64,000 nucleotides of DNA, taken from IMG/VR virus record IMGVR_UViG_3300047564_001818. One strand, 5' to 3'. Numbering within the stretch: position 1 is the stretch's first letter; each line of letters begins with the position of its first letter. The position numbers and the translations under genes were made by a program. The notes beneath the pieces are model-generated. The model did no database searches. It worked only from the letters and a program-made list of their open reading frames with translations, and was not told the DNA's origin. Shown here piece by piece: positions 10,525 to 47,202 of this stretch. Source of the stretch: a virus (taxonomy: Duplodnaviria > Caudoviricetes).

Positions 10525-10999
10525 TGTTATGTTCTTCAGCCAGTTCTCGGAGTTCTTTTTTTGTAGATATTCTAGCAAGTAATTCTACCTCATCATGTTT
10601 CATGTTTGGATAAATCTGTTCTAGTAATTTAGTAGCACTATTGGTACTGCTGTCTTTTTTCTTAAATCCTATCCATGCATGGTTTTCTTTTTGTCCAGTG
10701 TTTCCACATTGACATAGCAGTAACCATTGCAGTTTAGGATGTTTGCTACCAAGTACTGCCCAGTTTTTATTATAATACTCATTGGTCTTAAACACAGCCA
10801 GTTCTTGTTGATCTCTTGAATATTTTTTATACGGAGGAAATTTGCTTTCGGCTAACACACTCATATAACGATTTAGGTTCCATAAGTCACCTTTGATTTC
10901 TTTCTGACCATCTTCTCCAGCGGCATCCCACAGTTCTTTAATACCAGCATCAAGTGCTGGCATCATTTCTTTGAATAGGTCTATGTGTTTGTTCGCCAT
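10508..10999 (-). CDS. putative clamp-loader small subunit (T4 gp62-like)
   Basis: LNRYMS...NEYYN...HPKLQW...WIGFKKK...LEQIYP pattern resembles gp62; replication context. Confidence 0.5.
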   Translation of the reverse strand: MANKHIDLFKEMMPALDAGIKELWDAAGEDGQKEIKGDLWNLNRYMSVLAESKFPPYKKYSRDQQELAVFKTNEYYNKNWAVLGSKHPKLQWLLLCQCGNTGQKENHAWIGFKKKDSSTNSATKLLEQIYPNMKHDEVELLARISTKKELRELAEEHNIDIKL

Positions 11000-11658
11000 G
11001 CTTCTGCATCCTCCGGAGTATTGATTTCTATACCTTTAAATTCTACAGGAAGAACTCCGATTTGCCAACCATTTTTTAACCAACGCAACTGTTCTAGTTT
11101 TTCGATGCGTTCTTCTCTAGTTTCAATAAGGTGCATGTAAGCTTCTAGTGCTGCTTTGGTATAACCGTATACACCTAGGTGCCAATCGCCGTATCCAGTC
11201 ATGCCGCGACCGAACCAAAGACATTGATCCTTTGCTCTAACCAATTTAACTGTGTTAGGATCGTTTAGACGTTCGTCAGGCATTTGAGCGCACAGTGTAG
11301 TCACAGGATAGTGTTGAAGCATAATCACAGCTTTCTGTATCATTTCAACTGTAACATCGGGCATGTCGCCTTGAACATTTATAAACTGTTCATAGTCATC
11401 AAATTGTCTGCTTAGAACAGCGCCGGCGCATCGTTCAGTACCGTTTTCGTAATCTTCCTTGTCAATATACACTCGTTTACTGGGAATTAAATCAGCTACA
11501 CGCTGATCATCTGTGAGAACATAGGTATCAAACCCTGCGTTCCAACAGGCGTTGAACACTCTCTGTATCATAGGTGTACCACCTAGATCCACAAGAGGTT
11601 TACCAGGAAAACGAGTTGAGCCGTACCTAGCCGGTATAAGAATAGCGGTGGATTTCAT
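10981..11658 (-). CDS. kdsB: CMP-Kdo synthetase
   Basis: IPARYGSTRFPGKPL, NGTERC, INVQGDMP, EKLEQLRWL. Confidence 0.93.
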   Translation of the reverse strand: MKSTAILIPARYGSTRFPGKPLVDLGGTPMIQRVFNACWNAGFDTYVLTDDQRVADLIPSKRVYIDKEDYENGTERCAGAVLSRQFDDYEQFINVQGDMPDVTVEMIQKAVIMLQHYPVTTLCAQMPDERLNDPNTVKLVRAKDQCLWFGRGMTGYGDWHLGVYGYTKAALEAYMHLIETREERIEKLEQLRWLKNGWQIGVLPVEFKGIEINTPEDAEAWRTNT

Positions 11659-12388
11659 CGATTAACCTTTCAAAGTCAGATAGTTTTATCATGTTAGGAC
11701 CATCCGACGGTGCGTTGTCTGGATCAGGATGTACTTCTAAAAAGAAGTTTGTAATCCCAAGAGCACTTGCTGCCCGGCAAAGGCTAGGAACATAAGAACG
11801 ATTGCCATCGCTGCTAGTTCCTCTGCCGCCTGGCTTTTGTACACTGTGCGTGGCGTCGAAAACAATAGGTACGGTAAAGTTATCAAGCATATAGTTAATG
11901 CCGGTAAAATCAACAACCAAGGTATTATATCCAAAGCTAGTTCCCCTTTCAGTTATCCAAACTTCTTTTGCATCTGTACACTTACTTAGTATTCCTGCCA
12001 CATCCCATGGTGCCAAAAACTGACCTTTTTTGATATTAACAATACAATCTGTAGCACATGCTGCCTGTATTAAGTCTGTTTGCCGGCACAAAAAGGCAGG
12101 TATCTGTAGCACATCAACAATGTCTTTTAACCACGCAATTTGGTCTTTTTCGTGTACGTCTGTTAATACCTTTACATTTAATATGTCTTTTAGTGCTAAG
12201 ATATCATGTATAAAAGGATGTAGTCCTACACCACGTTTACCGTTAGCACTAGTACGATTGGCTTTGTCAAAACTTGCTTTGAAAATGTATTCAATATTAT
12301 ACTTGTCACACACCCGCTTACATTCACGTGCAATCTCTACACTCTGTGCTAGTGTTTCATGCTGGCACGGTCCTGCTATAATTCTCAT
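11627..12388 (-). CDS. kdsA: Kdo-8-phosphate synthase
   Basis: IAGPC, FDKANRTS, QIPAFLCRQTDL, NIKKGQF, DATHSVQKP, SDGPN. Confidence 0.95.
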   Translation of the reverse strand: MRIIAGPCQHETLAQSVEIARECKRVCDKYNIEYIFKASFDKANRTSANGKRGVGLHPFIHDILALKDILNVKVLTDVHEKDQIAWLKDIVDVLQIPAFLCRQTDLIQAACATDCIVNIKKGQFLAPWDVAGILSKCTDAKEVWITERGTSFGYNTLVVDFTGINYMLDNFTVPIVFDATHSVQKPGGRGTSSDGNRSYVPSLCRAASALGITNFFLEVHPDPDNAPSDGPNMIKLSDFERLIDEIHRYSYTG

Positions 12389-12741
12389 ACTCGAGTACCT
12401 ATAGTTCTTCTTACAATGTCATCGTGGGCGAATTCAGCCCAATACAGTTCAAATGCCACACCATCCTCGAGACCTTCGAACTGATGAATCTTACCTGGCT
12501 TGACTTGTGTAAAGTCGCCAGCTTCGAGAACAGTTTCATCTACTAGTCCTTGCTGCTCAGCATCTTGCCAAACACGTACCAACATCTTACCAGATTCAAC
12601 AAAGAAACCATTCCACTTAAATTTGTGTTCATGTTCTGAACATTTGTATCCTGCTTTGAATTCAATACGATGAAATTCTAATACACCGTTGGCATGTATT
12701 AGTTCAGTGTTACCCCATACTTTACCAGCTTTAATTCCCAT
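12385..12741 (-). CDS. cupin, type II phosphomannose-isomerase-like
   Basis: KVWG, SEHEHKFK, PGKIHQF metal-binding cupin motifs; coupled to kdsA. Confidence 0.75.
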   Translation of the reverse strand: MGIKAGKVWGNTELIHANGVLEFHRIEFKAGYKCSEHEHKFKWNGFFVESGKMLVRVWQDAEQQGLVDETVLEAGDFTQVKPGKIHQFEGLEDGVAFELYWAEFAHDDIVRRTIGTRV

Positions 12742-12751
12742 AGTGTTTTCC

Positions 12752-13258
12752 TTACAATAACAATGAATAATCTATTAATTCACACTGTCTGCTGATATCT
12801 TTTACAAAATAAGCACACAGTGGATTCTTTCCTTCTGTAAGTGGAACACTTAATAGTTGCCCGTTCTTCATTTTAGGAAAGTACCATTTTACATCTGTAT
12901 AAAAGTTAGTGACTTTTATATTTCCAAACTCAGTTTTAAAACTACTGAGGGGATTAAAAAGAAAAGCTTCAAACCCTCTATCGTTCAAACTAGTTAACGG
13001 CAATATCTCTAGATCGTTTCCTGATTCACTACAGCCTACTGCTAAACTCCAATCTACAGGCATTGTGATTTCTTTGCCTGCTATTTCTAATACCATTGCC
13101 GGTGCATTGAACGATTCTAAAAATATTAACGGTACAAAAAAGAAATCAGGATTTTTTGGGTCCGAATTATCTAGTACTGAAAATCTTATATCTTCATCAA
13201 TTTGGTCAGGCAAGTCGTCTAGATTAAAACACTTGTTTTCTAATGTTAGTATTCTCAT
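12752..13258 (-). CDS. hypothetical protein
   Basis: 168-aa ORF, operon position downstream of uvsW. Confidence 0.7.
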   Translation of the reverse strand: MRILTLENKCFNLDDLPDQIDEDIRFSVLDNSDPKNPDFFFVPLIFLESFNAPAMVLEIAGKEITMPVDWSLAVGCSESGNDLEILPLTSLNDRGFEAFLFNPLSSFKTEFGNIKVTNFYTDVKWYFPKMKNGQLLSVPLTEGKNPLCAYFVKDISRQCELIDYSLLL

Positions 13259-13264
13259 TTAAAT

Positions 13265-14728
13265 TTAATTCCAATCTACCTTTTCTATGGTAAATGGGTA
13301 TTGAGCTTCCTTGTAAAACTTCTTTCGTTCGGTAAGGTGCCGCTTCGCATACTTGCACGTTGATGTCAAGTCCCATATTTGTACGAAGTCTTTGTCTTTT
13401 GCCTTTCTAACGCCTCTACCGATTGATTGAATTACTCTAACAAAACTTTTACCCGGTTCAAGCAATACAAGATTAAAAATACGCGGAATGTTAAGTCCAA
13501 CCGCAGCAACACCATACGTAGCAATAATTACTTCGTTTGTGCCTTCTCGAATTGTATCGTATGTTTCTTTTCTGTCTTTTACTTTAACAGCACCGCTAAC
13601 AAATGTGCTGCCGGGTATGAGTTTTTGTAACTCTTCGCCTGCCGAAATTCTGTCTACAAGTATTAGAGTGTTGCCTGATTCTTTAACCGTGTTTAATAAT
13701 TTGCCTATATATTCTATACGTTCTTTGTTTGTAACCAAATATTTTAATTCGTCTTGATAACCTCTGTGCGCTACTGTATCAATCAACTGTACAATATTAA
13801 CATGACAGTCTGCTAGCACACCTTTATCCTGTAGTTCTTTTGCTGTAATCTGTCCAATAACCGGTCCAAGGCTTGCGTGAATACTTTCAAACTCAAACTT
13901 CTCTTTGGGCACTGTACCAGTTAGTCCCCAGCGAATAGGAGCGTTACGCAAGTTACGGGTAAGTAGATTTTTTAGTACTTCTGCTTTGGCTTGGTGTACT
14001 TCGTCAACAATAACTGTGCTTACACCTTCCAAGAACTCTGCTAGGCTTAGCACTGCATCACCGTCTTTGTGACGCTTATCAAGAATGTTTAAACTTTGCC
14101 AAGTACAAATTGTGTGAGTTTTGCCCAACTGCTTTCTGTCACCAAAATACACACCCACATCAAGGCCGCAGTTGATATAATCTTCTTCAGTTTGTTCAAC
14201 CAAGCTTTTGTTAGGTACAATAACAAGACTGCGGCCATATGGTTCGCTAATGTGACTTAGAGTTGCTGTGGTAATAGTTTTACCTGCGCCAGTAGCAATC
14301 TGCTGTAGACTTTGAGGATTAGCAATAAAGTTGTTGATTGCTTCAACTTGATAATCACGCAACATAATTAACTCGCCTTCAGCAGGGTGACCCTTAGGCC
14401 AGCGTACATCTTGATCGGCCCAATAGGTTTCAGTGACAGGTGTAAAGTTTATCTGTATAGGATGTCTGTTATCCTCAATGTCTGCAATCTGAACATTGTT
14501 CTTTTGTAGAATGTCAATGATAACATCAAGGTGATTGACGTAACCGGTGCCGCCAATACCAAAGAACGCAACCTTGCCGTCCCATCGCCCTAGCTTAAAC
14601 TGAGGCATGTGTTTTGCATATGGCACTTCAAACTTTAGTGCATTTGCAAGTTTACGACGAACGTCAACATCAAGTCCTTCAAACTTAATGTTTACTTCGT
14701 CTTCAATAATTAACTTACACGTGGCCAT
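13265..14728 (-). CDS. uvsW: SF2 DNA helicase (UvsW-like)
   Basis: LRDYQ, ATGAGKT, DEVH, GLTGT, QSIGRGVR; start placed at MATCKL. Confidence 0.9.
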   Translation of the reverse strand: MATCKLIIEDEVNIKFEGLDVDVRRKLANALKFEVPYAKHMPQFKLGRWDGKVAFFGIGGTGYVNHLDVIIDILQKNNVQIADIEDNRHPIQINFTPVTETYWADQDVRWPKGHPAEGELIMLRDYQVEAINNFIANPQSLQQIATGAGKTITTATLSHISEPYGRSLVIVPNKSLVEQTEEDYINCGLDVGVYFGDRKQLGKTHTICTWQSLNILDKRHKDGDAVLSLAEFLEGVSTVIVDEVHQAKAEVLKNLLTRNLRNAPIRWGLTGTVPKEKFEFESIHASLGPVIGQITAKELQDKGVLADCHVNIVQLIDTVAHRGYQDELKYLVTNKERIEYIGKLLNTVKESGNTLILVDRISAGEELQKLIPGSTFVSGAVKVKDRKETYDTIREGTNEVIIATYGVAAVGLNIPRIFNLVLLEPGKSFVRVIQSIGRGVRKAKDKDFVQIWDLTSTCKYAKRHLTERKKFYKEAQYPFTIEKVDWN

Positions 14729-15938
14729 AATATTGTGAATATCTCCGCATAGGGCTGAGCATGTCTTCTCTATACACAACTAGATCGCATCTGTTGTAAA
14801 CGTATGCGTCTACTGTACGATCTAGTTTGCTGGTATAACTAAAAGTTGCACAAGGTTGCCATTCGCTGTTGATCAACAGTTTAGGTAACTTGTCACTGCT
14901 AATATATACTATTTTTGTGTTGTTGTCAACCCAGTTGTTGAGTTTGCGATCTTTGACTAGTGTATTAAAACTGCTGTCGCCTTCTTGACGGAATAAAACA
15001 CTTTGCGATTCTGTAGGCAATATGTCTCTATAAAAGTTAGTTAAATCGTGTAGTTGATGTTCTGCATATTGACGATCAAGAATCACTAGCATCGGAAATC
15101 TCTGTAGATTCCACAATGCAAGTAGTATGTCAGATAGAGATTGTTCACTGGGTTTGCTTTGATAGCTAACATCATCTCTATATGCAATTGACTCTGTTAC
15201 TGATCTAGGATCAACAACTTCAACTTTTTCAATACCGTATCTGTGTCTTCGATCAATGTACAACAGCGCAGTTGATTGATCAAATGCTCCGATTTCTTTC
15301 TCTGCAACAGTTTGTGCATTAGGATGTAAATTTTTTAATTCGCCTTGATAAATGCCAGGAACATAATCCTGTTCACAGCAGCGAATGTCTACAATCTTTT
15401 GATAAATGTCTACAAGTTCACTATCAATTTTATAGTTTTTATCAACGAATCTGCTCAGCAGATTATACACATTGATTTCGTTTAGTACAAAATAATGTTC
15501 ATGTGTGCCTTTACTGTGATAATAATCTTTAGTATTGTTAATCTGATCAATCAGTGCTATATCTGATTTTTTAAATGGAAATCTAATTTTGATATACTTA
15601 CAACGTTCGTCAGCAGGATATGGAATATTTTCAGGATGATCTACTACAGTAATATATTTGCTGCGATCGATTTCACGCAGAGGATTGCGCAGTTTTTCTA
15701 ACGCACGATCAAATCCTATAACATCTTGATTTTCAAACTGCGATTTGTACTTGAGCAGTTTTTCTTTCATAAGAGTGTATTGACGATCTGTCATAGCAGT
15801 ATTACGAAAAACTTGACGAGCAACACTTTCTATGATTGAACGATCGCTTACGTCAACGTTAAATGCGAGATTATGCTTTTGAAGTCCTGACAGGATTTCA
15901 AGACAATCTTCTATTGTGTGTATACCTATTTTCTGCAT
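14715..15938 (-). CDS. hypothetical protein
   Basis: Long ORF with own promoter, overlapping the uvsW start. Confidence 0.75.
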   Translation of the reverse strand: MQKIGIHTIEDCLEILSGLQKHNLAFNVDVSDRSIIESVARQVFRNTAMTDRQYTLMKEKLLKYKSQFENQDVIGFDRALEKLRNPLREIDRSKYITVVDHPENIPYPADERCKYIKIRFPFKKSDIALIDQINNTKDYYHSKGTHEHYFVLNEINVYNLLSRFVDKNYKIDSELVDIYQKIVDIRCCEQDYVPGIYQGELKNLHPNAQTVAEKEIGAFDQSTALLYIDRRHRYGIEKVEVVDPRSVTESIAYRDDVSYQSKPSEQSLSDILLALWNLQRFPMLVILDRQYAEHQLHDLTNFYRDILPTESQSVLFRQEGDSSFNTLVKDRKLNNWVDNNTKIVYISSDKLPKLLINSEWQPCATFSYTSKLDRTVDAYVYNRCDLVVYREDMLSPMRRYSQYYGHV

Positions 15939-15944
15939 ACACAC

Positions 15945-15973
15945 AATATAACTTAAAAAAGCTTGTGTGTCAA
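15945..15973 (-). promoter_or_regulatory. sigma70-type promoter
   Basis: TTGACA-17-TATATT. Confidence 0.7.
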
Positions 15974-16828
15974 CTGTTTAAGTGGTAGGCCTTGTGCTAT
16001 TTCTTCCGCAGTCCATTCTGTATAAGCATAATCGTTTAACCATTGTGTTCTGTCTAGCATCAACGGATTTTCTATGTCGTGTAAGAAATCTATGTCGTTG
16101 GCTACATCATAAGCAAGGCTATGATTACTAACAAAGCTAGGAATCCCGTTGATAACACTGTGTATGCCAGGATTGCTACTCCAATTAATAGTAGCAAATA
16201 TATTGTCAAAAGCCATATTAAAATCGTCGTAAGTACCGTCAATGTGCTGTGGTTCCTGTCTGTACACATATTTAAGTCCGTGTTCTATATCAGGTAATCT
16301 ACATCTAGGATGTGGACGAAATATAATAGGCCTAAGTGTATGCTTGCGTATTTCAGTATAAACTTTTAAAAACCAGTTGCTTATACTGGGTTGATTTTGC
16401 CATTGTAAGCTCTTATCGTGTTGCCCAGCAATAAGAATGTATTCTCCAGTTGTACGCCAAGGCTTAACTGTTAGACCTAGTGTCTGCGCTCTCTCTCCAG
16501 TATTTCCGCTATCACAGAAGTAGGCGTCGCGGTTGATGCCATTAAGGCCGACCTTCCACGTTGTGCCTCTTTGTATGCCCCCCACTTCAAGAACAATGAT
16601 AGGTTTATTACTAGCAGTGACAGCGTTCCAGATATTACGATTGCTAGCCATGCGGCCGTGAAATAAAACACTCCAAATAACATGAACATCGGAATCGACA
16701 TAATTAGTAGAATTGGAAATAATACCACCACTGCTAGTAACAGCATTAGCAAAGGCATCAAAAACAGGACGTGAATTAAGCGCACCGTATTCTCTCCACA
16801 GTTTAAATTTTTTGCCAGTAAGGTTCAT
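15953..16828 (-). CDS. capsule-synthesis (KpsS/KpsC-like) glycosyltransferase
   Basis: GQHDKSLQ, IFRPHP, NWSSNPGIHSVINGIP. Confidence 0.6.
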   Translation of the reverse strand: MNLTGKKFKLWREYGALNSRPVFDAFANAVTSSGGIISNSTNYVDSDVHVIWSVLFHGRMASNRNIWNAVTASNKPIIVLEVGGIQRGTTWKVGLNGINRDAYFCDSGNTGERAQTLGLTVKPWRTTGEYILIAGQHDKSLQWQNQPSISNWFLKVYTEIRKHTLRPIIFRPHPRCRLPDIEHGLKYVYRQEPQHIDGTYDDFNMAFDNIFATINWSSNPGIHSVINGIPSFVSNHSLAYDVANDIDFLHDIENPLMLDRTQWLNDYAYTEWTAEEIAQGLPLKQLTHKLF

Positions 16829-17651
16829 TTCTATGACCCATTAGATCTTTGCATTTACTAGCGCCTTCAAACTTGCGATCGCCTTTCATGTGATCCATCC
16901 AACGTCCTAGTTTACTATTGATCAATGGATGGCCGCCGCCGCCTGTTTTAGCAGTATTTGACAAGTATATTTCAGCTGAATAATCTAATACATTAGGTGC
17001 TGTTTGTTTCATATTTTCTAATATATGGCCAAAAACAAAACTGTCATGCCATTCATCTAACATAAAGATCCCATTCTCTGCATCTTTATACATTCGTTCA
17101 AACTCTGTTAAAAATTCTTGACACACTGGGTCTTTTAGATTCATTCCATAAAACCCACACTCAGGCCAAGTCTGACTTCCTTTACCTCGACCTACATATG
17201 TAATCCAACTGGTATTAGGAAGCAGATCACAAAAATCATTATAATCCCACGGTGAGTGTATAAAACTGTCAGCATCCATCCATACACACCAGTCTATTGA
17301 ACGTTCGCAAGCATCAAACACAGCATATACTTTGTTGGCAAATCTTACTGCGTCCCATTTAAATTCTTTGTTCCAGTCTCTTAGTCTGCGTTCTGGCCAC
17401 GGACATTTACCATTTGCTTTAGGCACATCCTTCCATTGTTCTTTAAATGCATTTAATTTTGGTAATGATTTTTTAGCATCTAATATTTCTATACGCATAG
17501 GATCAGGGTTATTAGGCATGCAATCTTCAGCATAAACTAAAAGTTTAATTCGTTTGTCTACGTGTCTAGCAAAGCTATCTAAAAATTTTTCTCCATAAAC
17601 ACTATAATGTTTGTTATGAAAGGTAGTTACTACTGTAATGTGTTTTGTCAT
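16803..17651 (-). CDS. GT-A-like glycosyltransferase
   Basis: RFANKVYA, WMDADS DxD motif; ATGA coupling to the upstream gene. Confidence 0.7.
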   Translation of the reverse strand: MTKHITVVTTFHNKHYSVYGEKFLDSFARHVDKRIKLLVYAEDCMPNNPDPMRIEILDAKKSLPKLNAFKEQWKDVPKANGKCPWPERRLRDWNKEFKWDAVRFANKVYAVFDACERSIDWCVWMDADSFIHSPWDYNDFCDLLPNTSWITYVGRGKGSQTWPECGFYGMNLKDPVCQEFLTEFERMYKDAENGIFMLDEWHDSFVFGHILENMKQTAPNVLDYSAEIYLSNTAKTGGGGHPLINSKLGRWMDHMKGDRKFEGASKCKDLMGHRNEPYWQKI

Positions 17652-18580
17652 TTTTTGGCCCAATTCCTTAGATGCTTCCATGCAGTTCCGTCTTTGAGTT
17701 CGCTTAAACTCCAGTGCATTTGTGCCATTTTCTTTACCCATAATTCTCTATCGAATTCTTTAATATTTTCTAATCGTGACAAATCATGATGAGAAACTTC
17801 AGCTGCTTGACTGTGCTTTGGATCAAGCACGAATGTAGGTACACCTTCTATAGCCGCGGCCACTGCTGGACTTGAATTATAATTTATTACTGCGTGTGCA
17901 AACTTAAAATCCTGAAGTATGCTTTCGTTATGACTAATAACTACGTTTGATAACCTATATCTTGCTAAAGATCTTTTATGAGTTAGCACATTTTTATCGC
18001 CTGGATGAAATCTTACTATTATACGTCTATCGCTATATTTCCTGATGTCAGTTACAGTTTTTACCAACCAAGGTAATAGTTTATTATCTCCCATGCTCCA
18101 ACCTCCGTCTCGTTGACAACAGATTAGTATGTCCTTACCTGTTTTCTGTAACGGTTTGAGAGTTAGGTTAAGATTCTTACTAATTGTTTCCCATCTTTCA
18201 GGATCAGGATTGCTATTACAGTATTCTCCTGTATTAGGAAAAATACCGTCATAACTGTATCTCAAATAACCTCTGCTGTTGCCAGAGTCTGCATATAAAA
18301 AGAGATTACTGTCAACAATAATGCTTCTTTTACCATCTCGCTGTTGTTTTTCAAATACTTCTTTTCTTAGATTAAGGTGAGGTACATTTTTGCTACCAGG
18401 ATGTACATAACCTTGTACAACAGCTACATCAGCATCGATGGGATTGTAATCAGTTACTATAGTTCCTTCATCGCCGCAGCGCCATACACCTTCTATAAAA
18501 TTTACAATAATAGCAGGCTTTTCTGGATTGGTATTTCCTGGCGGAATGCCCATTAAGTACGACGCTACTTTAGTAGTCAT
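17648..18580 (-). CDS. capsule-synthesis (KpsS/KpsC-like) glycosyltransferase
   Basis: VRFHP, NYNSSPAVAAAIEGVP. Confidence 0.6.
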   Translation of the reverse strand: MTTKVASYLMGIPPGNTNPEKPAIIVNFIEGVWRCGDEGTIVTDYNPIDADVAVVQGYVHPGSKNVPHLNLRKEVFEKQQRDGKRSIIVDSNLFLYADSGNSRGYLRYSYDGIFPNTGEYCNSNPDPERWETISKNLNLTLKPLQKTGKDILICCQRDGGWSMGDNKLLPWLVKTVTDIRKYSDRRIIVRFHPGDKNVLTHKRSLARYRLSNVVISHNESILQDFKFAHAVINYNSSPAVAAAIEGVPTFVLDPKHSQAAEVSHHDLSRLENIKEFDRELWVKKMAQMHWSLSELKDGTAWKHLRNWAKK

Positions 18581-19383
18581 TTTAGATCATACTCCTCTAT
18601 TAATCGCATTGCAGTTCCATTTAGCATTTCTTCAGGAGTATACTGACAGTGTCCTAGCCAATGCTGCCATTTAATTACTTTGGATTCATCTTCATACAAC
18701 GGTGTTTCTATTTTGCTAAGATCTTTTAAACAGAAAGGATCTGCTGCATTTGGTGCAAGTGTAAAACATGGAATACCGTAACCTATTGCTTCAGTGGCTG
18801 CTATACTGTTGTACGTAACTACAGCAAATATACCGTCTTCTTCAAATTGATTGTATATGCTCTTATCACCTGTTCGATCTTTTCTTAGGCCTTTATTTCT
18901 TATTATAATTTTTCTATCAGTGTGTTTGGTTAATTCTGTAATAGTATTTTCTAACCATTCGTCTCTGTTTATACCGTAAAAGTTACAAGGTTTATCGCTA
19001 GGAGTAACAATTAAAATATTATCTCCATCTTTTCGCCATTTATTAAAACGCACAAATTCTTGACCATTAATTATAAAATTAAATCGATTGTCTGGCAAAT
19101 CGTATCTAATATTAGAGTGTTGCATTCCGTTTTTTACCACACGATGCCAGTCCTTTCTTTTAAATAAATTTCCGTAATAACCTGTGTCTATATAAAAATA
19201 ATCTCTATTTGTTTTAACGCATTCTGATACAGTTTTACGCTGAGCCATACTTCTAAAAATAACAGGAATATCCTTGTTGAAATTCTTTAAATCTTTATAG
19301 GTAGATATAGGAGTTGCGTTGACAGACTTAGCTAGACATCCAACAATAGCATCATTTACATCAATGGCTAACATGTCAGTCAT
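18577..19383 (-). CDS. capsule-synthesis (KpsS/KpsC-like) protein
   Basis: TYNSIAATEAIGYGIP; HP motif replaced by RNK. Confidence 0.5.
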   Translation of the reverse strand: MTDMLAIDVNDAIVGCLAKSVNATPISTYKDLKNFNKDIPVIFRSMAQRKTVSECVKTNRDYFYIDTGYYGNLFKRKDWHRVVKNGMQHSNIRYDLPDNRFNFIINGQEFVRFNKWRKDGDNILIVTPSDKPCNFYGINRDEWLENTITELTKHTDRKIIIRNKGLRKDRTGDKSIYNQFEEDGIFAVVTYNSIAATEAIGYGIPCFTLAPNAADPFCLKDLSKIETPLYEDESKVIKWQHWLGHCQYTPEEMLNGTAMRLIEEYDLK

Positions 19384-20053
19384 TCATCATTGCCTGTAAT
19401 TCTTCTTTCCATATTTCATGGAATTTGCAGTTTCTATAATGTTCAAACCAAGGACCGCCTTCGGTATAATGAATTAGGTTAGGAACATCAATATCATCAT
19501 ACACACCTACTAGATAATTCCAAGTATGATCTAGAGATCCAATTTCTTCATCTTTTAACCAGCTAAATCTGTGTAGATAGGCACCAGTTATGCTAGGATC
19601 GTTAACTAGTTCTTTTGTAAGCTGCTTGTTACTAGGATGACTGCAATTGATAAGCATAGCACTCGACCAATTTTTGCGTGGGTAAACAGTCTGTTTTTGA
19701 CCGTCCATCTTTGTGCCTTCTGCCACAGCGTAATCATGCTGAACACACATTACAGCATAACGATCGTCTGCTTGATCAAACAATTCTTTGATGTCTGTAG
19801 TGAGAATCATATCACAATCCATAAACAATGCCCAACCACTAAAATCAGTTAGTTCAGGAATAAGGAAACGAGTAAACGTAAATTCTGTGCTTGCTAGTTT
19901 GTCAACATCTCTCCAATACATGCCCTGTTCTCTGAGCTCAGGTTGCTTCAACGGAACAACTTCTGCTGCAGGTTGTCTACTTATAATACTATGCTTGCAC
20001 ACTTGATATGCAATGTCTTCTCTACTGTCCCATCCTACAAATATTTTCATCAA
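19376..20053 (-). CDS. GT-A glycosyltransferase (GT8-like)
   Basis: IFVGWDSRE, TEFTFTRF, FMDCDM, RKNWSS, HYTEGGPW. Confidence 0.85.
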   Translation of the reverse strand: MMKIFVGWDSREDIAYQVCKHSIISRQPAAEVVPLKQPELREQGMYWRDVDKLASTEFTFTRFLIPELTDFSGWALFMDCDMILTTDIKELFDQADDRYAVMCVQHDYAVAEGTKMDGQKQTVYPRKNWSSAMLINCSHPSNKQLTKELVNDPSITGAYLHRFSWLKDEEIGSLDHTWNYLVGVYDDIDVPNLIHYTEGGPWFEHYRNCKFHEIWKEELQAMMND

Positions 20054-20826
20054 TCTCTTCTTTCAATATCTTCTTCTATACATTTATCACCATATTGTAC
20101 TTCTAATATATGGCAAGGCTGGTCTGTTTCATTAATAGCTTTGTGCCAAACTTCGACGCCAACAACATAGGTACTGTTTTGATAAAGGTGTTGGGAGTCT
20201 TTGCGATTGTTAAATTCAGTATCCATTCTAAGGGTTCCACTTAGAACATACCAGTGTTCAGCTCTAAAACTGTGCCGCTGATCTGATAGACTACACATAG
20301 GATTTATTACAAGTTCTTTTACTTTAATTCCTTGATTGGGTTTGTCATCCAGTACTCGCCAATATCCCCAAGGACGTTCAGTTTTTTGTGTGCGCCAGCT
20401 ATCTAATATCCAGCTTGATGAATTACGTTTATCTTCGCCGCCGATGCCCCATGCAAACTCTAATCCATAGGTATTTTTGTACAATTCATATTCAGGAGTA
20501 GTACCGTTATTTCTATCTCCGCCGTTTGCAAATATTACAGTATTGCTTTCTCCGTAGGTGCTTAACATTTTGTAGATAGCATGGCAAGCTGTTCCGTCTT
20601 CGTCGTTAAATGCAACAACATCATCTACCATTTTGAGATTTTTTATAATAGCTGCACGTTCTTCCCACGGCATAAAAGGACGACCTTTTTTTCGAGCAAG
20701 CCAAGCATCACTGTTTAAACCAACAACCAGGCGATCGCCCAAATGTCGCGCTGCTTTAAAATACTCAATGTGTCCTGAGTGTAGAGGATCAAAGCCTCCT
20801 GTTACAAGTACTATACGTTTGTTCAT
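20050..20826 (-). CDS. cytidylyltransferase-like nucleotidyltransferase fused to a PMI-type cupin
   Basis: GGFDPLHSGH, GLNSD, FANGGDR; C-terminal RPWG...RAEHWYVLSG...EEDIER. Confidence 0.85.
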   Translation of the reverse strand: MNKRIVLVTGGFDPLHSGHIEYFKAARHLGDRLVVGLNSDAWLARKKGRPFMPWEERAAIIKNLKMVDDVVAFNDEDGTACHAIYKMLSTYGESNTVIFANGGDRNNGTTPEYELYKNTYGLEFAWGIGGEDKRNSSSWILDSWRTQKTERPWGYWRVLDDKPNQGIKVKELVINPMCSLSDQRHSFRAEHWYVLSGTLRMDTEFNNRKDSQHLYQNSTYVVGVEVWHKAINETDQPCHILEVQYGDKCIEEDIERRD

Positions 20827-20831
20827 ACAGA

Positions 20832-20839
20832 TATTTATA
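20832..20839 (-). promoter_or_regulatory. T4-type late promoter heading the glycosyltransferase operon
   Basis: exact TATAAATA 5 nt upstream of ATG. Confidence 0.7.
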
Positions 20840-20854
20840 TGAGCAGTTAATTGG

Positions 20855-21379
20855 TTAAATTATTTTTTGTCCTACAAACACATGATCCTTCCACCTAAAA
20901 GAATCCTTTGCAGTAGCGTTATAATCTATCCAATTATGTAAAAGTTTTATTTCACACTCTTCTGCAATAGCTTTAAAAGAATCATCCATAAATCTCCAGC
21001 AGTCTCTAACATCATGTCTAGGCCCAGAACTGGGAGCAATCAATATCATATGTCCACCATTTTTTAAGACACGCTTCATTTCTAATACGCTTCGAAACGG
21101 ATTTTTTACATGTTCTAGTACCTGGCCAGAAACAATCAAATCAATACTGTTATCATCAAAAGGCAACTCATATTCTCCTAGCATAACATGTGTTACATTT
21201 TCTCCAGGAATAATATCTGCTATGTAATAATTTAAAATTGGAATTGAAAATAATGATTTATAAGATCTGTCTCCATTTAAACCACGACCGCCTATATCTA
21301 AGATATTTAGATTAGATCTTTTATTAATCTCAATAAGAGAAAGTGCAATTTTCATATTTTCAATTGAAGAAGTGTGCAT
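20855..21379 (-). CDS. class I SAM-dependent methyltransferase
   Basis: ILDIGG, DLIVSGQVLEHV. Confidence 0.85.
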   Translation of the reverse strand: MHTSSIENMKIALSLIEINKRSNLNILDIGGRGLNGDRSYKSLFSIPILNYYIADIIPGENVTHVMLGEYELPFDDNSIDLIVSGQVLEHVKNPFRSVLEMKRVLKNGGHMILIAPSSGPRHDVRDCWRFMDDSFKAIAEECEIKLLHNWIDYNATAKDSFRWKDHVFVGQKII

Positions 21380-21975
21380 TAAAAAACTTCCTTTATAAGA
21401 TCTTGATATGTAATTAAAGGTAGATCATATACGTTTTTTTCATAAAATGTCCATGAATTTTCGACATTAAATTTTTTAGGAACTTGAGATTCTTTTTTTA
21501 TAAATCCACATCCTTCATCTATTAACACTAATTTAAATAAAATGTCTTCTCGAGATGCTAGATCAAAACTTAATCTCCATACATCCCCTAGCCATGTTTT
21601 AGGAAAAGGATCGGGAATAGGAACAACAGCTTCGTCTTGGATTCTAGGTAACATGTCATGAATTATTATTATTCCATTATCGTTCAAACAGTTTAAAGAA
21701 TTTTCAAAATCCTTTAATACCTGTTCATAATAATGTAATCCATCTATAAATATCACATCAAAGGTGTCTGTATTTTGAAGGAAAAATTCATCACTAGTCA
21801 TTCTTCTATTTCCACCTTGAACGGGATCAACACCAATTTTGTAACTGCATTTTGCGTTGTTAAAAATTTTATCTTTAAAGCAACCTATTTCTAAATATTT
21901 TTTTGCGTTTGTTTTGTCAATAGACAAATTAATCAAATCTAACCTAGATTCGTTAGTAAATGAAAAGTTAAGCAT
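21379..21975 (-). CDS. class I SAM-dependent methyltransferase (Methyltransf_24-like)
   Basis: YLEIGC, FDVIFIDGLH, IIIIHD. Confidence 0.85.
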   Translation of the reverse strand: MLNFSFTNESRLDLINLSIDKTNAKKYLEIGCFKDKIFNNAKCSYKIGVDPVQGGNRRMTSDEFFLQNTDTFDVIFIDGLHYYEQVLKDFENSLNCLNDNGIIIIHDMLPRIQDEAVVPIPDPFPKTWLGDVWRLSFDLASREDILFKLVLIDEGCGFIKKESQVPKKFNVENSWTFYEKNVYDLPLITYQDLIKEVF

Positions 21976-22870
21976 TTAACATTTCCTTAATATATTCTTC
22001 GATGTTTTTAGTAGGCTGCCAACCAAATGTTTCTTTTAATTTATTATTATTAGCAAGAGTTTCCTTTGCTTCACCTAATCTAGAATCAATAAAAACAGTG
22101 CTTTTACTAATCATGTCTGCTAATTCAAGAACACTATAATTTATACCGGTTCCTACATTAAACACAGTTCCATAAAGATTGTGATCGTCATGTGTCATTG
22201 CTAACATATTAGCAGAAACAACGTCGTCTACATGTGTAAAATCTCTACGCTGTGTTCCAGGAGGCACAATTGTTAATGATTGTCGAGCTTTAAATTGTCT
22301 AATAAAAAGTCCCACAACAGGAGCATATGGACCCTTTAATGGTTCTCTCGGGCCGTACACATTAAAATATCGAAAAATAATAGTCTTTAGACCAAAAAGA
22401 TCTGTATACATTTTACAAAGTTTTTCACCGGCAACTTTTGATACACTGTAGGGATTTAGGCAATCATCTGGCATAGTTTCGTTAAGTGGAGGATTGTTTA
22501 TTCTTCCATACCCTGAACTAGTACTACTGTATATAACTTTTTTTACGTTAGCTTCTCTAGAACATTGTAATACCGTTGCAGTACCTAACGTATTAGTTTT
22601 AACAGCAAGTAAAGGATTGTTAATAGACGGTTGTATTCTTGATTCTGCTGCGCAATGAAATACATAATCTACATTTTCATAAAGTGTTCTTGTATTTTCG
22701 TAATCAGCTATATCTAATTTGTAGTATTTTGCTTTGTTATTATAATAAAAATTATTGTGTACTTGAGATGTTTCGTTGTCTATAACAGTAACTTCATAAT
22801 TATCATTTACTAGTTTATCAACAATATGAGAGCCAATAAAGCCGGCGCCACCAGTAACTATACATTTCAT
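21968..22870 (-). CDS. NAD-dependent nucleotide-sugar epimerase/dehydratase
   Basis: TGGAGFIG, YSVSK (YxxxK), RYFNVYGP, RDFTHV. Confidence 0.92.
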   Translation of the reverse strand: MKCIVTGGAGFIGSHIVDKLVNDNYEVTVIDNETSQVHNNFYYNNKAKYYKLDIADYENTRTLYENVDYVFHCAAESRIQPSINNPLLAVKTNTLGTATVLQCSREANVKKVIYSSTSSGYGRINNPPLNETMPDDCLNPYSVSKVAGEKLCKMYTDLFGLKTIIFRYFNVYGPREPLKGPYAPVVGLFIRQFKARQSLTIVPPGTQRRDFTHVDDVVSANMLAMTHDDHNLYGTVFNVGTGINYSVLELADMISKSTVFIDSRLGEAKETLANNNKLKETFGWQPTKNIEEYIKEMLNA

Positions 22871-22896
22871 TTTTAATCCTTGATAAATTAACTGTG

Positions 22897-22915
22897 TATT
22901 TATCTCCAATAAATA
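22897..22915. promoter_or_regulatory. back-to-back late promoters
   Basis: TATTTAT (22897-22903, minus) and ATAAATA (22909-22915, plus). Confidence 0.55.
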
Positions 22916-22934
22916 TTACTTTAATGAGATCTCA

Positions 22935-23567
22935 ATGAAAAAAATTATATTTCAAATCAATGTTCCTAATCATATACAAACAACTAATCTTACAGCGTAT
23001 TCTTTTATTTCAGAAATGTATGAAGTAAGCGAAAGAAATGCAAAGATGTACGCTAAAAAATGTGAGGCGGACTATTATAAAGTTTCAGTTGCTGATGATT
23101 TTCTTCCTGCAAAAGGAAAACATCTCGATTATCAAAAATTAAAAATATATGATTTTATTGATTATGACAGAGTTGTATACCTTGATTCAGATTTTATTAT
23201 CAAAGATAATGCACCTAATATTTTTAATCTTTGCGGGGATAATTTTGCTGCTGTAATAGACCCTGGAAAAACTGTTGGCGAGTTAGCATCTAATTTAGGT
23301 ATTCCTAGAGACAATTATTTTAATGCAGGATTTATGCATATTACTAAAAATGTATTAAACAAAACAAAGGAATTTCTTGCAGAATATCTTGAAAAAGAAT
23401 ATGAATATCAAGGACAAGGTCTGCTTAACAAGTTGTTTTATGATAAAAATATTAATATAAAGCAGTTAGATGCTAGAGAATGGAATCCTGTTAACAAAAC
23501 ATTTGGATTATATGCCGATCATTATGCAGGCGGCAGAAAAAGAAAATGGGGTACAGTTATCTACTAA
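22935..23567 (+). CDS. GT8-like glycosyltransferase
   Basis: YLDSDF DxD motif, YFNAGF, QGLLN. Confidence 0.75.
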   Translation: MKKIIFQINVPNHIQTTNLTAYSFISEMYEVSERNAKMYAKKCEADYYKVSVADDFLPAKGKHLDYQKLKIYDFIDYDRVVYLDSDFIIKDNAPNIFNLCGDNFAAVIDPGKTVGELASNLGIPRDNYFNAGFMHITKNVLNKTKEFLAEYLEKEYEYQGQGLLNKLFYDKNINIKQLDAREWNPVNKTFGLYADHYAGGRKRKWGTVIY

Positions 23568-24139
23568 ACTGAGTTTAGATGCCATGTAAAACTAAAGTTA
23601 TGATTTTCTAATGTTACAATATTATTCAAATCAAAACTCATATCTACTATGCCAGTGTTTAACATTGTATCAGCTGGCATAACTCCTTCATTTTTTGAAA
23701 ATGTAACTAATTTTTCAGCACCTTGAGGTGAAACACAATATCCAGCACCGCTAGCCCACCAATCTCCTATGTATATAGGTTTAGCTAAAGAGCCTTTTAC
23801 AAATTTATATACGTCAGTGAATTCTATTTGTGGAAAGGGTGCATTAATAATTACGTCATGTTCGAATATACAGATTGATTCGTTTAACTCTATACTTTTT
23901 TGCCATAAACTATAATGACTTAACAAACAACCTACAGTTCCCGGACGTTCAAACGATTTTCTACTTTTGCGATGATTTGGATTTCTAAAAAGATCAAATT
24001 CTTCTAATGAATGATGCAGACCATTTATACCTTCAAAATATTCAATGTTCCAATTATGATTAATTGCAGAATTGTATGCGTTTGTTGACCATTCTACACT
24101 ATTAGGAAAATCTGATAAACGTATTATATAACTTTTCAT
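23564..24139 (-). CDS. GT25-family glycosyltransferase
   Basis: GCLLSHYSLW, IFEHDV, GYCVSPQGA. Confidence 0.8.
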   Translation of the reverse strand: MKSYIIRLSDFPNSVEWSTNAYNSAINHNWNIEYFEGINGLHHSLEEFDLFRNPNHRKSRKSFERPGTVGCLLSHYSLWQKSIELNESICIFEHDVIINAPFPQIEFTDVYKFVKGSLAKPIYIGDWWASGAGYCVSPQGAEKLVTFSKNEGVMPADTMLNTGIVDMSFDLNNIVTLENHNFSFTWHLNSV

Positions 24140-30191: not shown

Positions 30192-30199
30192 TATTTATA
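30192..30199 (-). promoter_or_regulatory. T4-type late promoter
   Basis: exact TATAAATA. Confidence 0.75.
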
Positions 30200-37039: not shown

Positions 37040-37047
37040 TATTTATA
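37040..37047 (-). promoter_or_regulatory. T4-type late promoter
   Basis: exact TATAAATA followed by AGGAG RBS. Confidence 0.8.
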
Positions 37048-47198: not shown

Positions 47199-47202
47199 GC
47201 AA

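What the first reader, a model, noticed from the sequence alone, without database searches (positions are those of the whole stretch)
10981..19383. CMP-Kdo pathway (kdsA, kdsB) together with three KpsS/KpsC-like transferases
Seen: kdsA and kdsB, plus three ORFs with capsule-synthesis-like motifs (RPHP or RFHP, NSS.A..A...G.P); the third has RNK where HP is expected. Established: KpsS/KpsC (GT107) are CMP-Kdo-dependent beta-Kdo transferases. Inference: the phage encodes donor and acceptor enzymes for an oligo-Kdo or related ulosonic acid glycan. With the heptose genes, it would make both LPS inner-core sugar donors.
Basis: partly seen in the sequence, partly recalled or inferred. Interest (0 to 1): 0.8.

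Follow-up and report, generated by a model that had tools for sequence, protein, structure and literature searches.

The report
Phage Kdo genes plus novel CMP-sugar transferases
An uncultured aquatic giant phage carries genes for making the activated bacterial sugar CMP-Kdo next to three related enzymes from a large unnamed viral family that are shaped like known Kdo-transferring enzymes but lack their key catalytic residue, so they probably attach Kdo-type sugars by a different chemistry.

Summary
On the minus strand, 11627-12388 is a true Kdo-8-phosphate synthase: it passes the NCBIfam kdsA cut-offs. ORF 10981-11658 is a divergent CMP-Kdo synthetase: all its best hits are KdsB models, just below cut-off, and it is 34% identical to E. 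coli KpsU.

ORFs 15953-16828 (A), 17648-18580 (B) and 18577-19383 (C) are paralogues with the motifs as described. C has RNKG where the others have RxHP.

- **Not PF05159/GT107 by profile.** None of the three has any hit, even at E<=10.
- **Fold supports the link.** A confident model of B (pLDDT 95.9) is closest to the retaining beta-Kdo transferases KpsC, WbbB and KrkA (Z 12.9-14.4; next unrelated GT-B 11.1). Profile-profile comparison aligns B to KpsS across the catalytic motifs (84.8%).
- **Motifs are incomplete.** A and B keep the CMP-binding (K/R)xHP motif and the Gln of QXXXD. All three lack the Asp nucleophile (Ser, Gly, Pro). C also lacks Gln and His.
- **Each variant is a conserved subfamily** of a large family without a Pfam model (4254 clusters).

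Fifty-three related phage contigs keep the five-transferase operon, which sits behind a T4-type late-promoter motif. kdsB, or the whole Kdo gene set, is sometimes absent.

Most likely these are CMP-ulosonic (probably Kdo) transferases with a non-canonical mechanism. The acceptor is unknown.

The parts
10981..11658 (-). kdsB-like CMP-Kdo synthetase (225 aa), divergent
   Evidence: PF02348 at 6e-30. The top five NCBIfam hits are all KdsB models, 179 bits against a cut-off of 193. It is 34% identical to E. coli CFT073 KpsU. It is cleanly absent in relatives L004, L005 and L053.
11627..12388 (-). kdsA, Kdo-8-phosphate synthase (253 aa)
   Evidence: NF003543 340.5 bits (cut-off 242) and TIGR01362 322.3 bits (cut-off 314). 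A homologue is found in only 7 of 50,697 phage records.
12385..12741 (-). 118-aa cupin, start/stop-coupled to kdsA and lost together with kdsA/kdsB in L008. It is a candidate sugar-phosphate isomerase (inference only).
   Evidence: Cupin_2 at 1.2e-6. It is conserved at 88% in relatives and co-absent with kdsA/kdsB in L008. No SIS-type KdsD was found in any ORF scanned.
15953..16828 (-). Paralogue A (291 aa): motifs GQHDKS (Gln kept, Ser at the nucleophile position) and RPHP
   Evidence: BLASTP to B gives 32% identity, E 1e-20. The motifs are conserved in orthologues. The A-type subfamily makes up 60 of 153 sequences.
16803..17681 (-). GT-A glycosyltransferase with an invariant DAD motif (about 292 aa; the real start is M21 of the 312-aa ORF)
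   Evidence: Relatives carry stop codons upstream of M21, and the Atlas record starts at residue 21. The AF2 model has pLDDT 85.7. Foldseek top hits are GT6 alpha-1,3-Gal/GalNAc transferases, E 8e-9. The gene is present in all 53 related loci.
17648..18580 (-). Paralogue B (310 aa): motifs CQRDGGWS (Gln kept, Gly at the nucleophile position), RFHP and NSSP
   Evidence: AF2 model pLDDT 95.9. Closest structures are KpsC, WbbB and KrkA, Z 12.9-14.4. hhalign to KpsS gives probability 84.8%. Weak NCBIfam hits to TIGR04396 (8.8e-7) and BFO_1060 (3.9e-5). Motifs are conserved in 39 orthologue sequences.
18577..19383 (-). Paralogue C (268 aa): motifs TPSDKP (no Gln, no Asp) and RNKG (Lys for His); keeps Arg190, Ser236 and Glu241 equivalents
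   Evidence: BLASTP to B gives E 6e-11. The C-type is a conserved subfamily of 30 of 153 sequences, with Pro for Gln almost always coupled to Lys for His. The Lys is kept in nearly all orthologue motif variants listed.
19376..20053 (-). GT8-like glycosyltransferase (225 aa)
   Evidence: PF01501 at 4.7e-5 and phrog_28018 at 7e-55. GT8 domains are fused to this HP family in P0185 and P0243. The gene is in all 53 loci.
20050..20826 (-). Nucleotidyltransferase (RfaE domain II / TagD-like) fused to a PMI-type cupin; first gene of the transferase operon
   Evidence: PF01467 at 9e-15 and PF01050 at 1e-17. TIGR02199 at 2.9e-22. The gene is in all 53 loci.
20832..20839 (-). TATAAATA, a T4-type late-promoter-like motif heading the operon
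   Evidence: Eleven of the 18 ATAAATA copies in the window lie within 60 nt upstream of a same-strand gene start, mostly virion genes.
20855..24900 (.). Variable sugar-modification cassette: two methyltransferases, an NDP-sugar epimerase/dehydratase, a GT8 gene on the + strand, a GT25 gene and an unknown ORF
   Evidence: Pfam hits. MT1, MT2 and GT8b have no counterpart in any of the 53 related loci.

Best explanation
This is a phage-borne glycan-building module in an uncultured T4-like jumbo phage. It has two parts. (1) KdsA and a divergent KdsB, probably with the adjacent cupin, top up the infected cell's CMP-Kdo pool. They are accessory genes, because close relatives lack kdsB or the whole set and would rely on the Gram-negative host's own CMP-Kdo. 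(2) A conserved, tightly packed operon sits behind a late-promoter-like motif. It encodes a nucleotidyltransferase-cupin fusion and five soluble glycosyltransferase-like proteins: a GT8-like enzyme, a GT6-like GT-A enzyme, and the three paralogues A, B and C. The paralogues belong to a very large family with no Pfam model; those of its members that could be traced are viral or metagenomic. The family shares the modified GT-B fold and the C-terminal-domain CMP site of the retaining beta-Kdo transferases (GT99, GT107, GT140): Arg-x-His-Pro, a phosphate-binding Ser, and a conserved C-terminal extension. A and B most likely bind a CMP-activated ulosonic acid, with CMP-Kdo the best candidate, and transfer it to a growing oligosaccharide made with the two GT-A enzymes. 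The Asp nucleophile of QXXXD is replaced by Ser in A and by Gly in B. They therefore cannot use the established covalent double-displacement route. They probably act by direct displacement using the family-wide acidic residue at position 90, which would give the opposite (alpha) anomer. C has lost Gln, Asp and His but keeps the Arg, Ser and Glu nucleotide contacts under purifying selection. It is either a non-catalytic partner or an enzyme with altered chemistry. Shown: gene identities, paralogy, fold, motif states, synteny and promoter-motif position. Inferred: CMP-Kdo as donor, inverting mechanism, cytoplasmic acceptor (possibly virion proteins) and late timing.
For: kdsA passes equivalog cut-offs and kdsB's best hits are all KdsB models; kdsB is 34% identical to KpsU. 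Paralogy. Model of B: pLDDT 95.9. Foldseek top 18 ranks are almost all KpsC, WbbB or KrkA, E 2e-8 to 2e-6. An independent all-against-all structural search puts KpsC (Z 14.4 and 14.1), WbbB (14.0) and KrkA (12.9) first, then generic GT-B at 11.1 or below with much worse rmsd. The family profile's best PDB sequence hit is WbbB, aligned over RxHP and NSS (E 0.08). hhalign against a KpsS profile gives 84.8%, E 6.6e-6, aligning Q156 to Q233, H192 to the HHP His, and NSS to NST. The best viral structural matches are Tetraselmis virus 1 proteins named 'Capsule polysaccharide biosynthesis protein', TM 0.75. (K/R)xHP is the CMP motif of sialyl- and Kdo-transferases, and QXXXD supplies the nucleophile and the Kdo-carboxylate contact (PMC12887879). 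Family-wide conservation of D/E90, R129, Q156, R190, H192, P193, S236, R278, W281, E294 and G298. Twenty-two of 153 family sequences do have canonical QxxxD plus HP. Operon synteny holds in 53 contigs, with motifs conserved in orthologues. There are no transmembrane segments. A late-type motif lies just upstream of the operon's first gene.
Against: No Kdo-specific feature was demonstrated in A, B or C, and the one residue that forms the Kdo adduct in all characterised relatives is missing. The closest sequence-family hits, all sub-threshold, are to predicted or proven nonulosonic-acid transferases (TIGR04396; BFO_1060, which is the Tannerella Pse/Leg transferase family, PMC5420450), not to Kdo enzymes. 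Family members in Caulobacter phages, Pelagibacter phage Mosig and a spring podovirus occur without phage kdsA. Conversely, the kdsA-bearing phages S-SCSM2R and LR756500 have no family member within 12-20 kb of kdsA. Within this lineage kdsA/kdsB are dispensable. kdsA/kdsB are separated from the transferase operon by replication genes and have no late motif of their own. The mechanism and the acceptor are pure inference. Model coordinates could not be inspected to see what fills the nucleophile position.
Confidence: 0.5

Rival explanations
1. A and B are transferases for a CMP-activated nine-carbon sugar (pseudaminic, legionaminic or sialic-type acid) supplied by the host or by genes elsewhere in the roughly 360-kb genome. 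On this reading kdsA/kdsB sit nearby for an unrelated reason, for example keeping host LPS synthesis going during infection.
For: The only recurrent sequence-family hits are TIGR04396 (8 of 50 members, best 8.8e-7) and the BFO_1060 Pse/Leg transferase family (3 of 50) (PMC5420450). One member weakly hits polysialyltransferase. The HP motif is shared with sialyltransferases, and those enzymes are inverting and lack a QXXXD Asp. The family is common in phages without kdsA. An unchecked scan note reports a Maf/DUF115-like transferase elsewhere in this genome.
Against: No NeuB/PseI-type synthase or NeuA/PseF-type synthetase appears in any ORF scanned in the window. The cytidylyltransferase present is KdsB-like, with PseF at only 1e-4. 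All four best structural matches are Kdo enzymes, whereas a polysialyltransferase scores only Z 9.8. The Gln that binds the Kdo carboxylate is kept.
Confidence: 0.22
2. The paralogues are TagF/TagB-like polyol-phosphate or sugar-phosphate transferases. They would use a CDP- or other NDP-activated substrate made by the nucleotidyltransferase-cupin fusion that heads the operon.
For: The first operon gene has a cytidylyltransferase-like domain with a TagD (glycerol-3-phosphate cytidylyltransferase) match at 5.9e-13. TagF and TagF-like capsule polymerases appear in the Foldseek list (ranks 35-41). The Tannerella enzymes were originally assigned a TagB-like domain.
Against: TagF matches are far weaker (E 2e-5, TM about 0.3) than the Kdo transferases. 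The nucleotidyltransferase matches RfaE domain II better (2.9e-22). The R-x-H-P, Gln and Ser pattern aligns residue for residue with KpsS and WbbB.
Confidence: 0.08
3. Some or all of the three are catalytically dead scaffolds that organise the active GT-A enzymes. C is the likeliest, since it has lost Gln, Asp and His.
For: The canonical nucleophile is absent in all three, and C lacks three of the four motif residues.
Against: Each variant is a conserved subfamily with its own invariant signature (A: Q-x-x-[KHR]-S, W163, R194; B: QRxGGWS, E245; C: P-x-x-K, R-x-K, E241) across many 50%-identity clusters and 53 syntenic loci. That argues for selected function at these positions. A and B keep every CMP-contact residue.
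Confidence: 0.15

Closest known systems
KpsC / KpsS (CAZy GT107, Pfam PF05159), retaining beta-Kdo transferases that build the capsule glycolipid linker
   Same: They share the modified GT-B fold (Z 14.1-14.4; Foldseek E 2e-8). They also share the (K/R)xHP CMP motif, the Gln of QXXXD, and the N-S-S/T phosphate loop, aligned by hhalign at 84.8% to KpsS. In E. coli a kdsB paralogue (kpsU) sits beside them, just as kdsB is nearby here.
   Different: There is no PF05159 match. The Asp nucleophile is replaced by Ser, Gly or Pro. The phage proteins are about 270-310 aa single modules, not KpsC's dual modules. The genes sit in a phage late operon with GT-A enzymes, and there are no kps export genes.
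WbbB N-terminal domain (GT99), a retaining beta-Kdo transferase that caps an O-antigen
   Same: It is the best PDB hit of the family profile by sequence, aligned over RAHPGS and TINSSVGLEA. Fold match Z 14.0.
   Different: The sequence match is only E 0.08. WbbB's Asp232 nucleophile has no equivalent here.
KrkA (GT140), the E. coli K13 capsule retaining Kdo transferase (PMC12887879)
   Same: Fold match Z 12.9. Like this family, it is 'deeply divergent from structurally homologous enzymes' yet keeps QXXXD, HP and an acidic general base in the N-terminal domain. A conserved Arg (R129 here, Arg127 in KrkA) and a conserved C-terminal extension are also present.
   Different: KrkA has Q189TLND193 with an essential Asp, which the window's paralogues lack. 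There is no detectable sequence similarity.
Tannerella forsythia Tanf_01245 / BFO_1060 family and TIGR04396: nonulosonic-acid (Pse/Leg) transferases
   Same: These give weak but recurrent HMM matches over the HP-containing C-terminal domain. They share the HP motif and the use of a CMP-activated acidic sugar.
   Different: Scores are far below the family cut-offs (28 against 125 bits; 23 against 200 bits). Those proteins are 365-445 aa, and no nonulosonic-acid pathway genes are seen here.
Synechococcus phage S-SCSM2R kdsA/kdsB (PMC12801897)
   Same: It is a phage-encoded kdsA plus kdsB pair among cell-surface sugar genes. Its kdsA is 42% identical.
   Different: That phage has no member of the HP-motif family within 12 kb of kdsA. 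The authors interpret the genes only as host cell-wall modification genes.

Membership tests
GT107 / PF05159 Capsule_synth (KpsC, KpsS) | Match to the PF05159 profile at or above the gathering score | tested here: not met
   A, B and C have no hit even at E<=10. Only 1 of 50 family members matches, at E 0.087.
GT107 / GT99 / GT140 retaining beta-Kdo transferases | Modified GT-B architecture shared by KpsC, WbbB and KrkA | tested here: met
   The model of B (pLDDT 95.9) puts KpsC (Z 14.4 and 14.1), WbbB (14.0) and KrkA (12.9) in the top four of 48,161 chains. Foldseek gives E 2e-8. A and C were not modelled; their fold is inferred from paralogy.
GT107 / GT99 / GT140 retaining beta-Kdo transferases | (K/R)xHP CMP-binding motif | tested here: met
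   A has RPHP and B has RFHP, aligned to KpsS HHP and WbbB AHP. The motif is not met in C, which has RNKG.
GT107 / GT99 / GT140 retaining beta-Kdo transferases | QXXXD motif: Gln binds the Kdo carboxylate and Asp is the covalent nucleophile | tested here: not met
   Gln is present in A and B. The Asp position holds Ser (A), Gly (B) and Pro (C), by MAFFT and hhalign alignment to KpsC QTFND and KpsS QVYND. The acidic residue at Q+2 is not conserved in orthologues (D to N) or across the subfamily.
GT107 / GT99 / GT140 retaining beta-Kdo transferases | Transfer of Kdo from CMP-beta-Kdo with retention | not testable with these tools
   This needs an enzyme assay and product NMR.
KdsA (Kdo-8-phosphate synthase) | Equivalog-level HMM score | tested here: met
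   NF003543 scores 340.5 against a cut-off of 242. TIGR01362 scores 322.3 against 314.
KdsB (CMP-Kdo synthetase) | Equivalog or subfamily HMM score above cut-off | tested here: inconclusive
   The best five hits are all KdsB models but fall below cut-off (179 against 193; 131.8 against 155.2). Other cytidylyltransferases score 1e-4 or worse. It is 34% identical to KpsU over the full length.
Nonulosonic-acid transferases (BFO_1060 family, TIGR04396) | HMM score above the family cut-off | tested here: not met
   The scores are 22.9 bits against 200 and 28.4 bits against 125, and the matches cover the C-terminal domain only. They are a sign of superfamily relatedness, not membership.

The most novel reading that the evidence does not exclude
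The three paralogues represent three subfamilies of a new, very large glycosyltransferase family (candidate new CAZy family) that descends from the retaining Kdo-transferase fold. Its traceable members so far are viral or metagenomic. These subfamilies have dispensed with the Asp nucleophile and would make alpha-linked Kdo (or another CMP-ulosonic acid) by direct displacement. Together with the phage's own CMP-Kdo and ADP-heptose supply, they would build an LPS-inner-core-like oligosaccharide on phage virion proteins in the cytoplasm late in infection.
Probability: 0.2. Interest if true: 0.85.

Novelty: new variant of a known kind. Interest (0 to 1): 0.6.

Why it matters
Only three small CAZy families of retaining Kdo transferases are known (GT99, GT107, GT140). 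All use a covalent Asp-Kdo intermediate. The KrkA paper (PMC12887879) says the enzymes that put Kdo into the variable part of capsules had not been investigated before that study.

This finding shows a fourth, much larger branch of the same fold: 4254 clusters at 50% identity, with no Pfam model. Its traceable members are spread across jumbo phages, pelagiphages and Caulobacter phages, with structural look-alikes in a giant algal virus. Most of the sequences nearest to the window's paralogues have replaced the nucleophile. That gives a natural experiment on how this fold changes mechanism or donor.

For phage biology, a lytic jumbo phage carries CMP-Kdo and ADP-heptose supply genes plus at least seven transferases behind late-type promoters. 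This suggests phage-directed assembly of a bacterial-core-like glycan. Whether it decorates virions or remodels the host envelope can be tested by expressing the operon.

Tried and rejected
- **PF05159, PHROGs and PDB sequence searches on single proteins:** no usable hit.
- **Apparent 440-nt insertion in paralogue B in many relatives:** this was an artefact. The tool merged the weaker upstream paralogue-C match, and the gene is contiguous.
- **Whole-genome search:** no genome is held for this window.
- **The search for related loci with the family alignment:** failed because no stretch was conserved enough. The single-protein scan worked.
- **Family members next to kdsA in other phages:** S-SCSM2R and LR756500 have none within 12-20 kb of kdsA, so there is no wider kdsA-family association.
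- **Origin of the canonical QxxxD members:** the cluster look-up gave only unnamed metagenome records.
- **Sigma-70 promoter and terminator scan:** not above shuffled expectation.
- **Exact TATAAATA:** not enriched overall, 5 copies against 6.2 expected. Only the positional test on ATAAATA was informative.
- **'Moraphage' paper (PMC12619734):** it is not evidently this lineage and does not mention Kdo.
- **Asp158 (Q+2) as a displaced nucleophile:** rejected. It is Asn in some orthologues and variable across the B-type subfamily.

Full report
**Setting.** The window comes from an uncultured T4-like jumbo phage.
- Its UvsW-type helicase (13265-14779) is 52-56% identical to those of Sinorhizobium phage Phosso, Agrobacterium phage Atu_ph07 and Pseudomonas phage PA5oct.
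- Nothing in 50,697 phage records matches the region at the DNA level.
- IMG/VR holds 53 contigs, up to 358 kb, with 66-85% identical copies of the central gene. Metagenome protein sets hold over a thousand homologues (E <= 0.001), the closest at 97% identity.
- From 25.4 kb down to 7.6 kb nearly all genes lie on the minus strand and are tightly packed.

**Kdo supply genes.**
- ORF 11627-12388 is a bona fide Kdo-8-phosphate synthase. It exceeds both NCBIfam equivalog cut-offs (340.5 against 242; 322.3 against 314), while DAHP-synthase models score far lower.
- ORF 10981-11658 is a CTP_transf_3 protein. Its five best NCBIfam hits are all CMP-Kdo synthetase models, just under their cut-offs. The pseudaminic-acid cytidylyltransferase model reaches only 1e-4. 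It aligns end to end with E. coli CFT073 KpsU at 34% identity.
- kdsA is very rare in sequenced phages, appearing in 7 of 50,697 records. One of those is Synechococcus phage S-SCSM2R, whose authors called it the first kdsA/kdsB in a cyanophage (PMC12801897).
- No SIS-type KdsD or KdsC was found among the ORFs scanned. A 118-aa cupin is start/stop-coupled to kdsA.

**The three ORFs are paralogues of a large family with no Pfam model.**
- BLASTP links them pairwise at 26-32% identity, E 1e-20 to 6e-11.
- None matches any Pfam model even at E<=10, including PF05159, and none matches a PHROG.
- A profile of the three finds 4254 clusters (50% identity) at E<=1e-3 and 2739 at E<=1e-10 among 1.84 billion representatives.
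- Scanning 50 members against Pfam gives only sub-threshold hits: DUF6716 in 10 members, and PF05159 and polysialyltransferase in one member each at E about 0.09-0.1.
- NCBIfam gives recurrent sub-threshold hits to TIGR04396 (8 members) and to the BFO_1060 family (3 members). The latter is the Tannerella forsythia pseudaminic/legionaminic-acid transferase family, described as carrying the sialyltransferase HP motif (PMC5420450).
- Longer family members are fused to GT8 domains or weakly HAD-like domains.

**Fold.** With a 50-sequence alignment, paralogue B folds at mean pLDDT 95.9 and pTM 0.92 into two Rossmann-like domains plus a C-terminal helical extension.
- Foldseek against the PDB ranks KpsC (8fuw, 6mgc, 8fux, 6mgd, 6mgb), WbbB (8csf, 5fa1 and others) and KrkA (9yfx-z) first, E 2e-8 to 2e-6.
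- An independent search of 48,161 representative chains puts the same enzymes in the first four places: KpsC Z 14.4 and 14.1, WbbB 14.0, KrkA 12.9, with rmsd 3.8-4.8 A over 239-258 residues. Ordinary GT-B proteins follow at Z 11.1 or below with rmsd 6-9 A.
- By sequence, the 50-member profile's best PDB hit is WbbB (E 0.08), aligned exactly over RAHPGS and TINSSVGLEA.
- Profile-profile comparison with a 22-member KpsS profile gives 84.8% probability (E 6.6e-6) over 104 columns. E. coli KpsS alone gives 77%, and the KpsC N-module 30% over 178 columns.
- Among viral models, the best matches are four Tetraselmis virus 1 proteins (TM 0.69-0.75), two of them named capsule polysaccharide biosynthesis proteins, and a CcrColossus protein.
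- Taken together, homology with the retaining beta-Kdo transferase superfamily is well supported. Membership of GT107, GT99 or GT140 is not.

**Active-site motifs.** The KrkA paper lists what the three characterised families share (PMC12887879). QXXXD provides the Asp that forms the covalent Kdo adduct and the Gln that binds the Kdo carboxylate. (K/R)xHP binds CMP. A Ser pair sits on the phosphate, and an acidic general base lies in the N-terminal domain.

| Paralogue | QXXXD region | HP region | State |
|---|---|---|---|
| B | C-Q156-R-D-G-G160-W-S | R190-F-H192-P193 | Gln kept, Gly at the Asp position |
| A | G-Q-H-D-K-S | R-P-H-P | Gln kept, Ser at the Asp position |
| C | T-P-S-D-K-P | R-N-K-G | Gln, Asp and His all lost |

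- Both hhalign alignments place KpsC D160 and KpsS D237 on Gly160 of B.
- The Asp two residues after Gln is not a displaced nucleophile. It is Asn in some orthologues and varies (E, N, S, P, H, I) across the B-type subfamily.
- Across 153 sequences the states are discrete: Q...S with HP (60), Q...G with HP (26), canonical Q...D with HP (22), and P with Lys replacing His (about 28). Gln-with-HP and Pro-with-Lys are almost perfectly coupled.
- Family-wide conserved positions include an acidic residue at position 90 in the N-terminal domain, R129, W171, R190, S236, G246, P248, and R278, W281, E294, G298 in the C-terminal extension.
- So the CMP site and a candidate general base are kept everywhere. 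The covalent nucleophile is kept only in a minority, and in none of the window's three genes.
- Each variant carries its own conserved signature, and those signatures are preserved in orthologues from 53 contigs. These are selected states, not decay.

**Genomic context.**
- A 292-aa gene lies between A and B. Its true start is M21 of the 312-aa ORF, as shown by upstream stops in relatives and by the Atlas record.
- Its model (pLDDT 85.7) is a GT-A fold closest to GT6 alpha-1,3-Gal/GalNAc transferases, and it has an invariant DAD motif.
- Upstream of C lie a GT8-like gene and a fusion of an RfaE-domain-II/TagD-like nucleotidyltransferase with a PMI-type cupin.
- The order fusion, GT8, C, B, GT-A, A, o409, uvsW, o168, cupin, kdsA, kdsB is conserved wherever the contig is long enough. 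The six operon genes are present in all 53 loci.
- kdsB is cleanly missing in L004, L005 and L053, the closest relatives. In L008, cupin+kdsA+kdsB are replaced by two ORFs, one of them HNH-like.
- The stretch between the fusion gene and o155 is a variable cassette. The window's two methyltransferases and its plus-strand GT8 gene occur in none of the 53 loci. L034 and L036 carry an extra family member there with a canonical QxxxD.
- None of the transferase-like proteins has a hydrophobic segment, and no flippase or exporter gene is in the cluster.
- ATAAATA, the core of the T4 late promoter, is strongly positional. Eleven of its 18 copies lie within 60 nt upstream of a same-strand start. These include the fusion gene that heads the operon, the plus-strand GT8 gene, and tail and structural genes.
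- A second sugar block at 45466-49031 encodes HldE-, HldD- and GmhB-like enzymes, an FkbM methyltransferase and another cupin.

**Interpretation.** The fold and the intact R-x-H-P, Ser and Gln set make a CMP-activated 2-keto-3-deoxy acid the most likely donor for A and B.
- CMP-Kdo is the best candidate. It is the only CMP-sugar pathway the phage encodes here, every Gram-negative host makes it, all four nearest structures are Kdo enzymes, and the carboxylate-binding Gln is kept.
- Without the Asp, the established double-displacement route is unavailable. Direct displacement using the conserved acidic residue at position 90 is the simplest alternative, and would yield alpha-Kdo. This is inference.
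- The main rival is a nonulosonic-acid donor. The sub-threshold NCBIfam hits favour it, as does the family's wide occurrence in phages without kdsA.
- C may be a partner protein or an enzyme with changed chemistry.
- Soluble enzymes, a late-type promoter motif and the absence of export genes fit a cytoplasmic acceptor such as virion proteins. Host lipid-linked acceptors are not excluded.

**Earlier scan notes.** Notes on this genome had already flagged the late-promoter motif, the cupins standing where SIS isomerases are missing, and the heptose module.
- I tested the late-promoter claim.
- I confirmed the heptose gene identities.
- I saw that the cupin is lost together with kdsA in L008.

Noticed in passing
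L004:6467-9249 (relative of window 13265-14779); also L053: In close relatives the UvsW helicase gene is split at its DExH box. One ORF ends in an N-intein-like '...VIVDE/CLAGDTLV...'. The next begins with a C-intein-like '...NDAVVAN/CHQAKAE...'. A free-standing 302-aa ORF lies between them. This looks like a split intein with an inserted gene. L053 has two interruptions, and the window's copy is intact.
   Followed up: partly
L008:15444-16563: Where other relatives have cupin-kdsA-kdsB, this contig has two unrelated ORFs, one with an HNH-endonuclease-like His/Cys pattern. The Kdo genes are therefore a swappable accessory block.
   Followed up: partly
window 12385-12741, 48011-48409 and 20050-20826: Small cupins sit beside kdsA and inside the heptose operon, and a third is fused to a nucleotidyltransferase. 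No SIS-type KdsD or GmhA was found in any ORF scanned. The kdsA-linked cupin is lost together with kdsA/kdsB in L008. This is a possible non-orthologous isomerase replacement, already noted by the scan.
   Followed up: partly
window, 18 copies of ATAAATA (e.g. 20832-20839, 30192-30199, 37040-37047): Eleven of 18 copies lie within 60 nt upstream of a same-strand gene start, often only 4-5 nt before the first ATG. This suggests a T4-type late promoter, and that several annotated starts may be too far upstream.
   Followed up: partly
window 20855-23567: Two methyltransferases and the plus-strand GT8 gene have no homologue in any of the 53 related loci (the epimerase/dehydratase matches only 4, at about 25% identity). 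Relatives carry other genes there, such as GT25-like genes or extra HP-family members with canonical QxxxD in L034:6119-7093 and L036:4384-5292. This is a hypervariable glycan-tailoring cassette.
   Followed up: partly
window 45466-49031: An ADP-heptose pathway block holds HldE-like, FkbM methyltransferase, HldD-like, cupin and GmhB-like genes. All score below the NCBIfam cut-offs but have the right best hits.
   Followed up: partly
window 49028-55192: A 2054-aa protein with 23% Ser+Thr lies next to the heptose block. It is a conceivable glycosylation target.
   Followed up: no
window 14715-15944: A 409-aa ORF between paralogue A and uvsW is conserved in 40 related loci at about 48% identity. 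It has no Pfam, PHROG or NCBIfam match. A strong sigma-70-like site (TTGACA-17-TATATT) lies just upstream at 15973-15945.
   Followed up: no
BFVD matches of model m719472d51af2: Tetraselmis virus 1, a giant algal virus, has four proteins with the same fold as paralogue B (TM 0.69-0.75). The family therefore spans phages and eukaryotic giant viruses.
   Followed up: no
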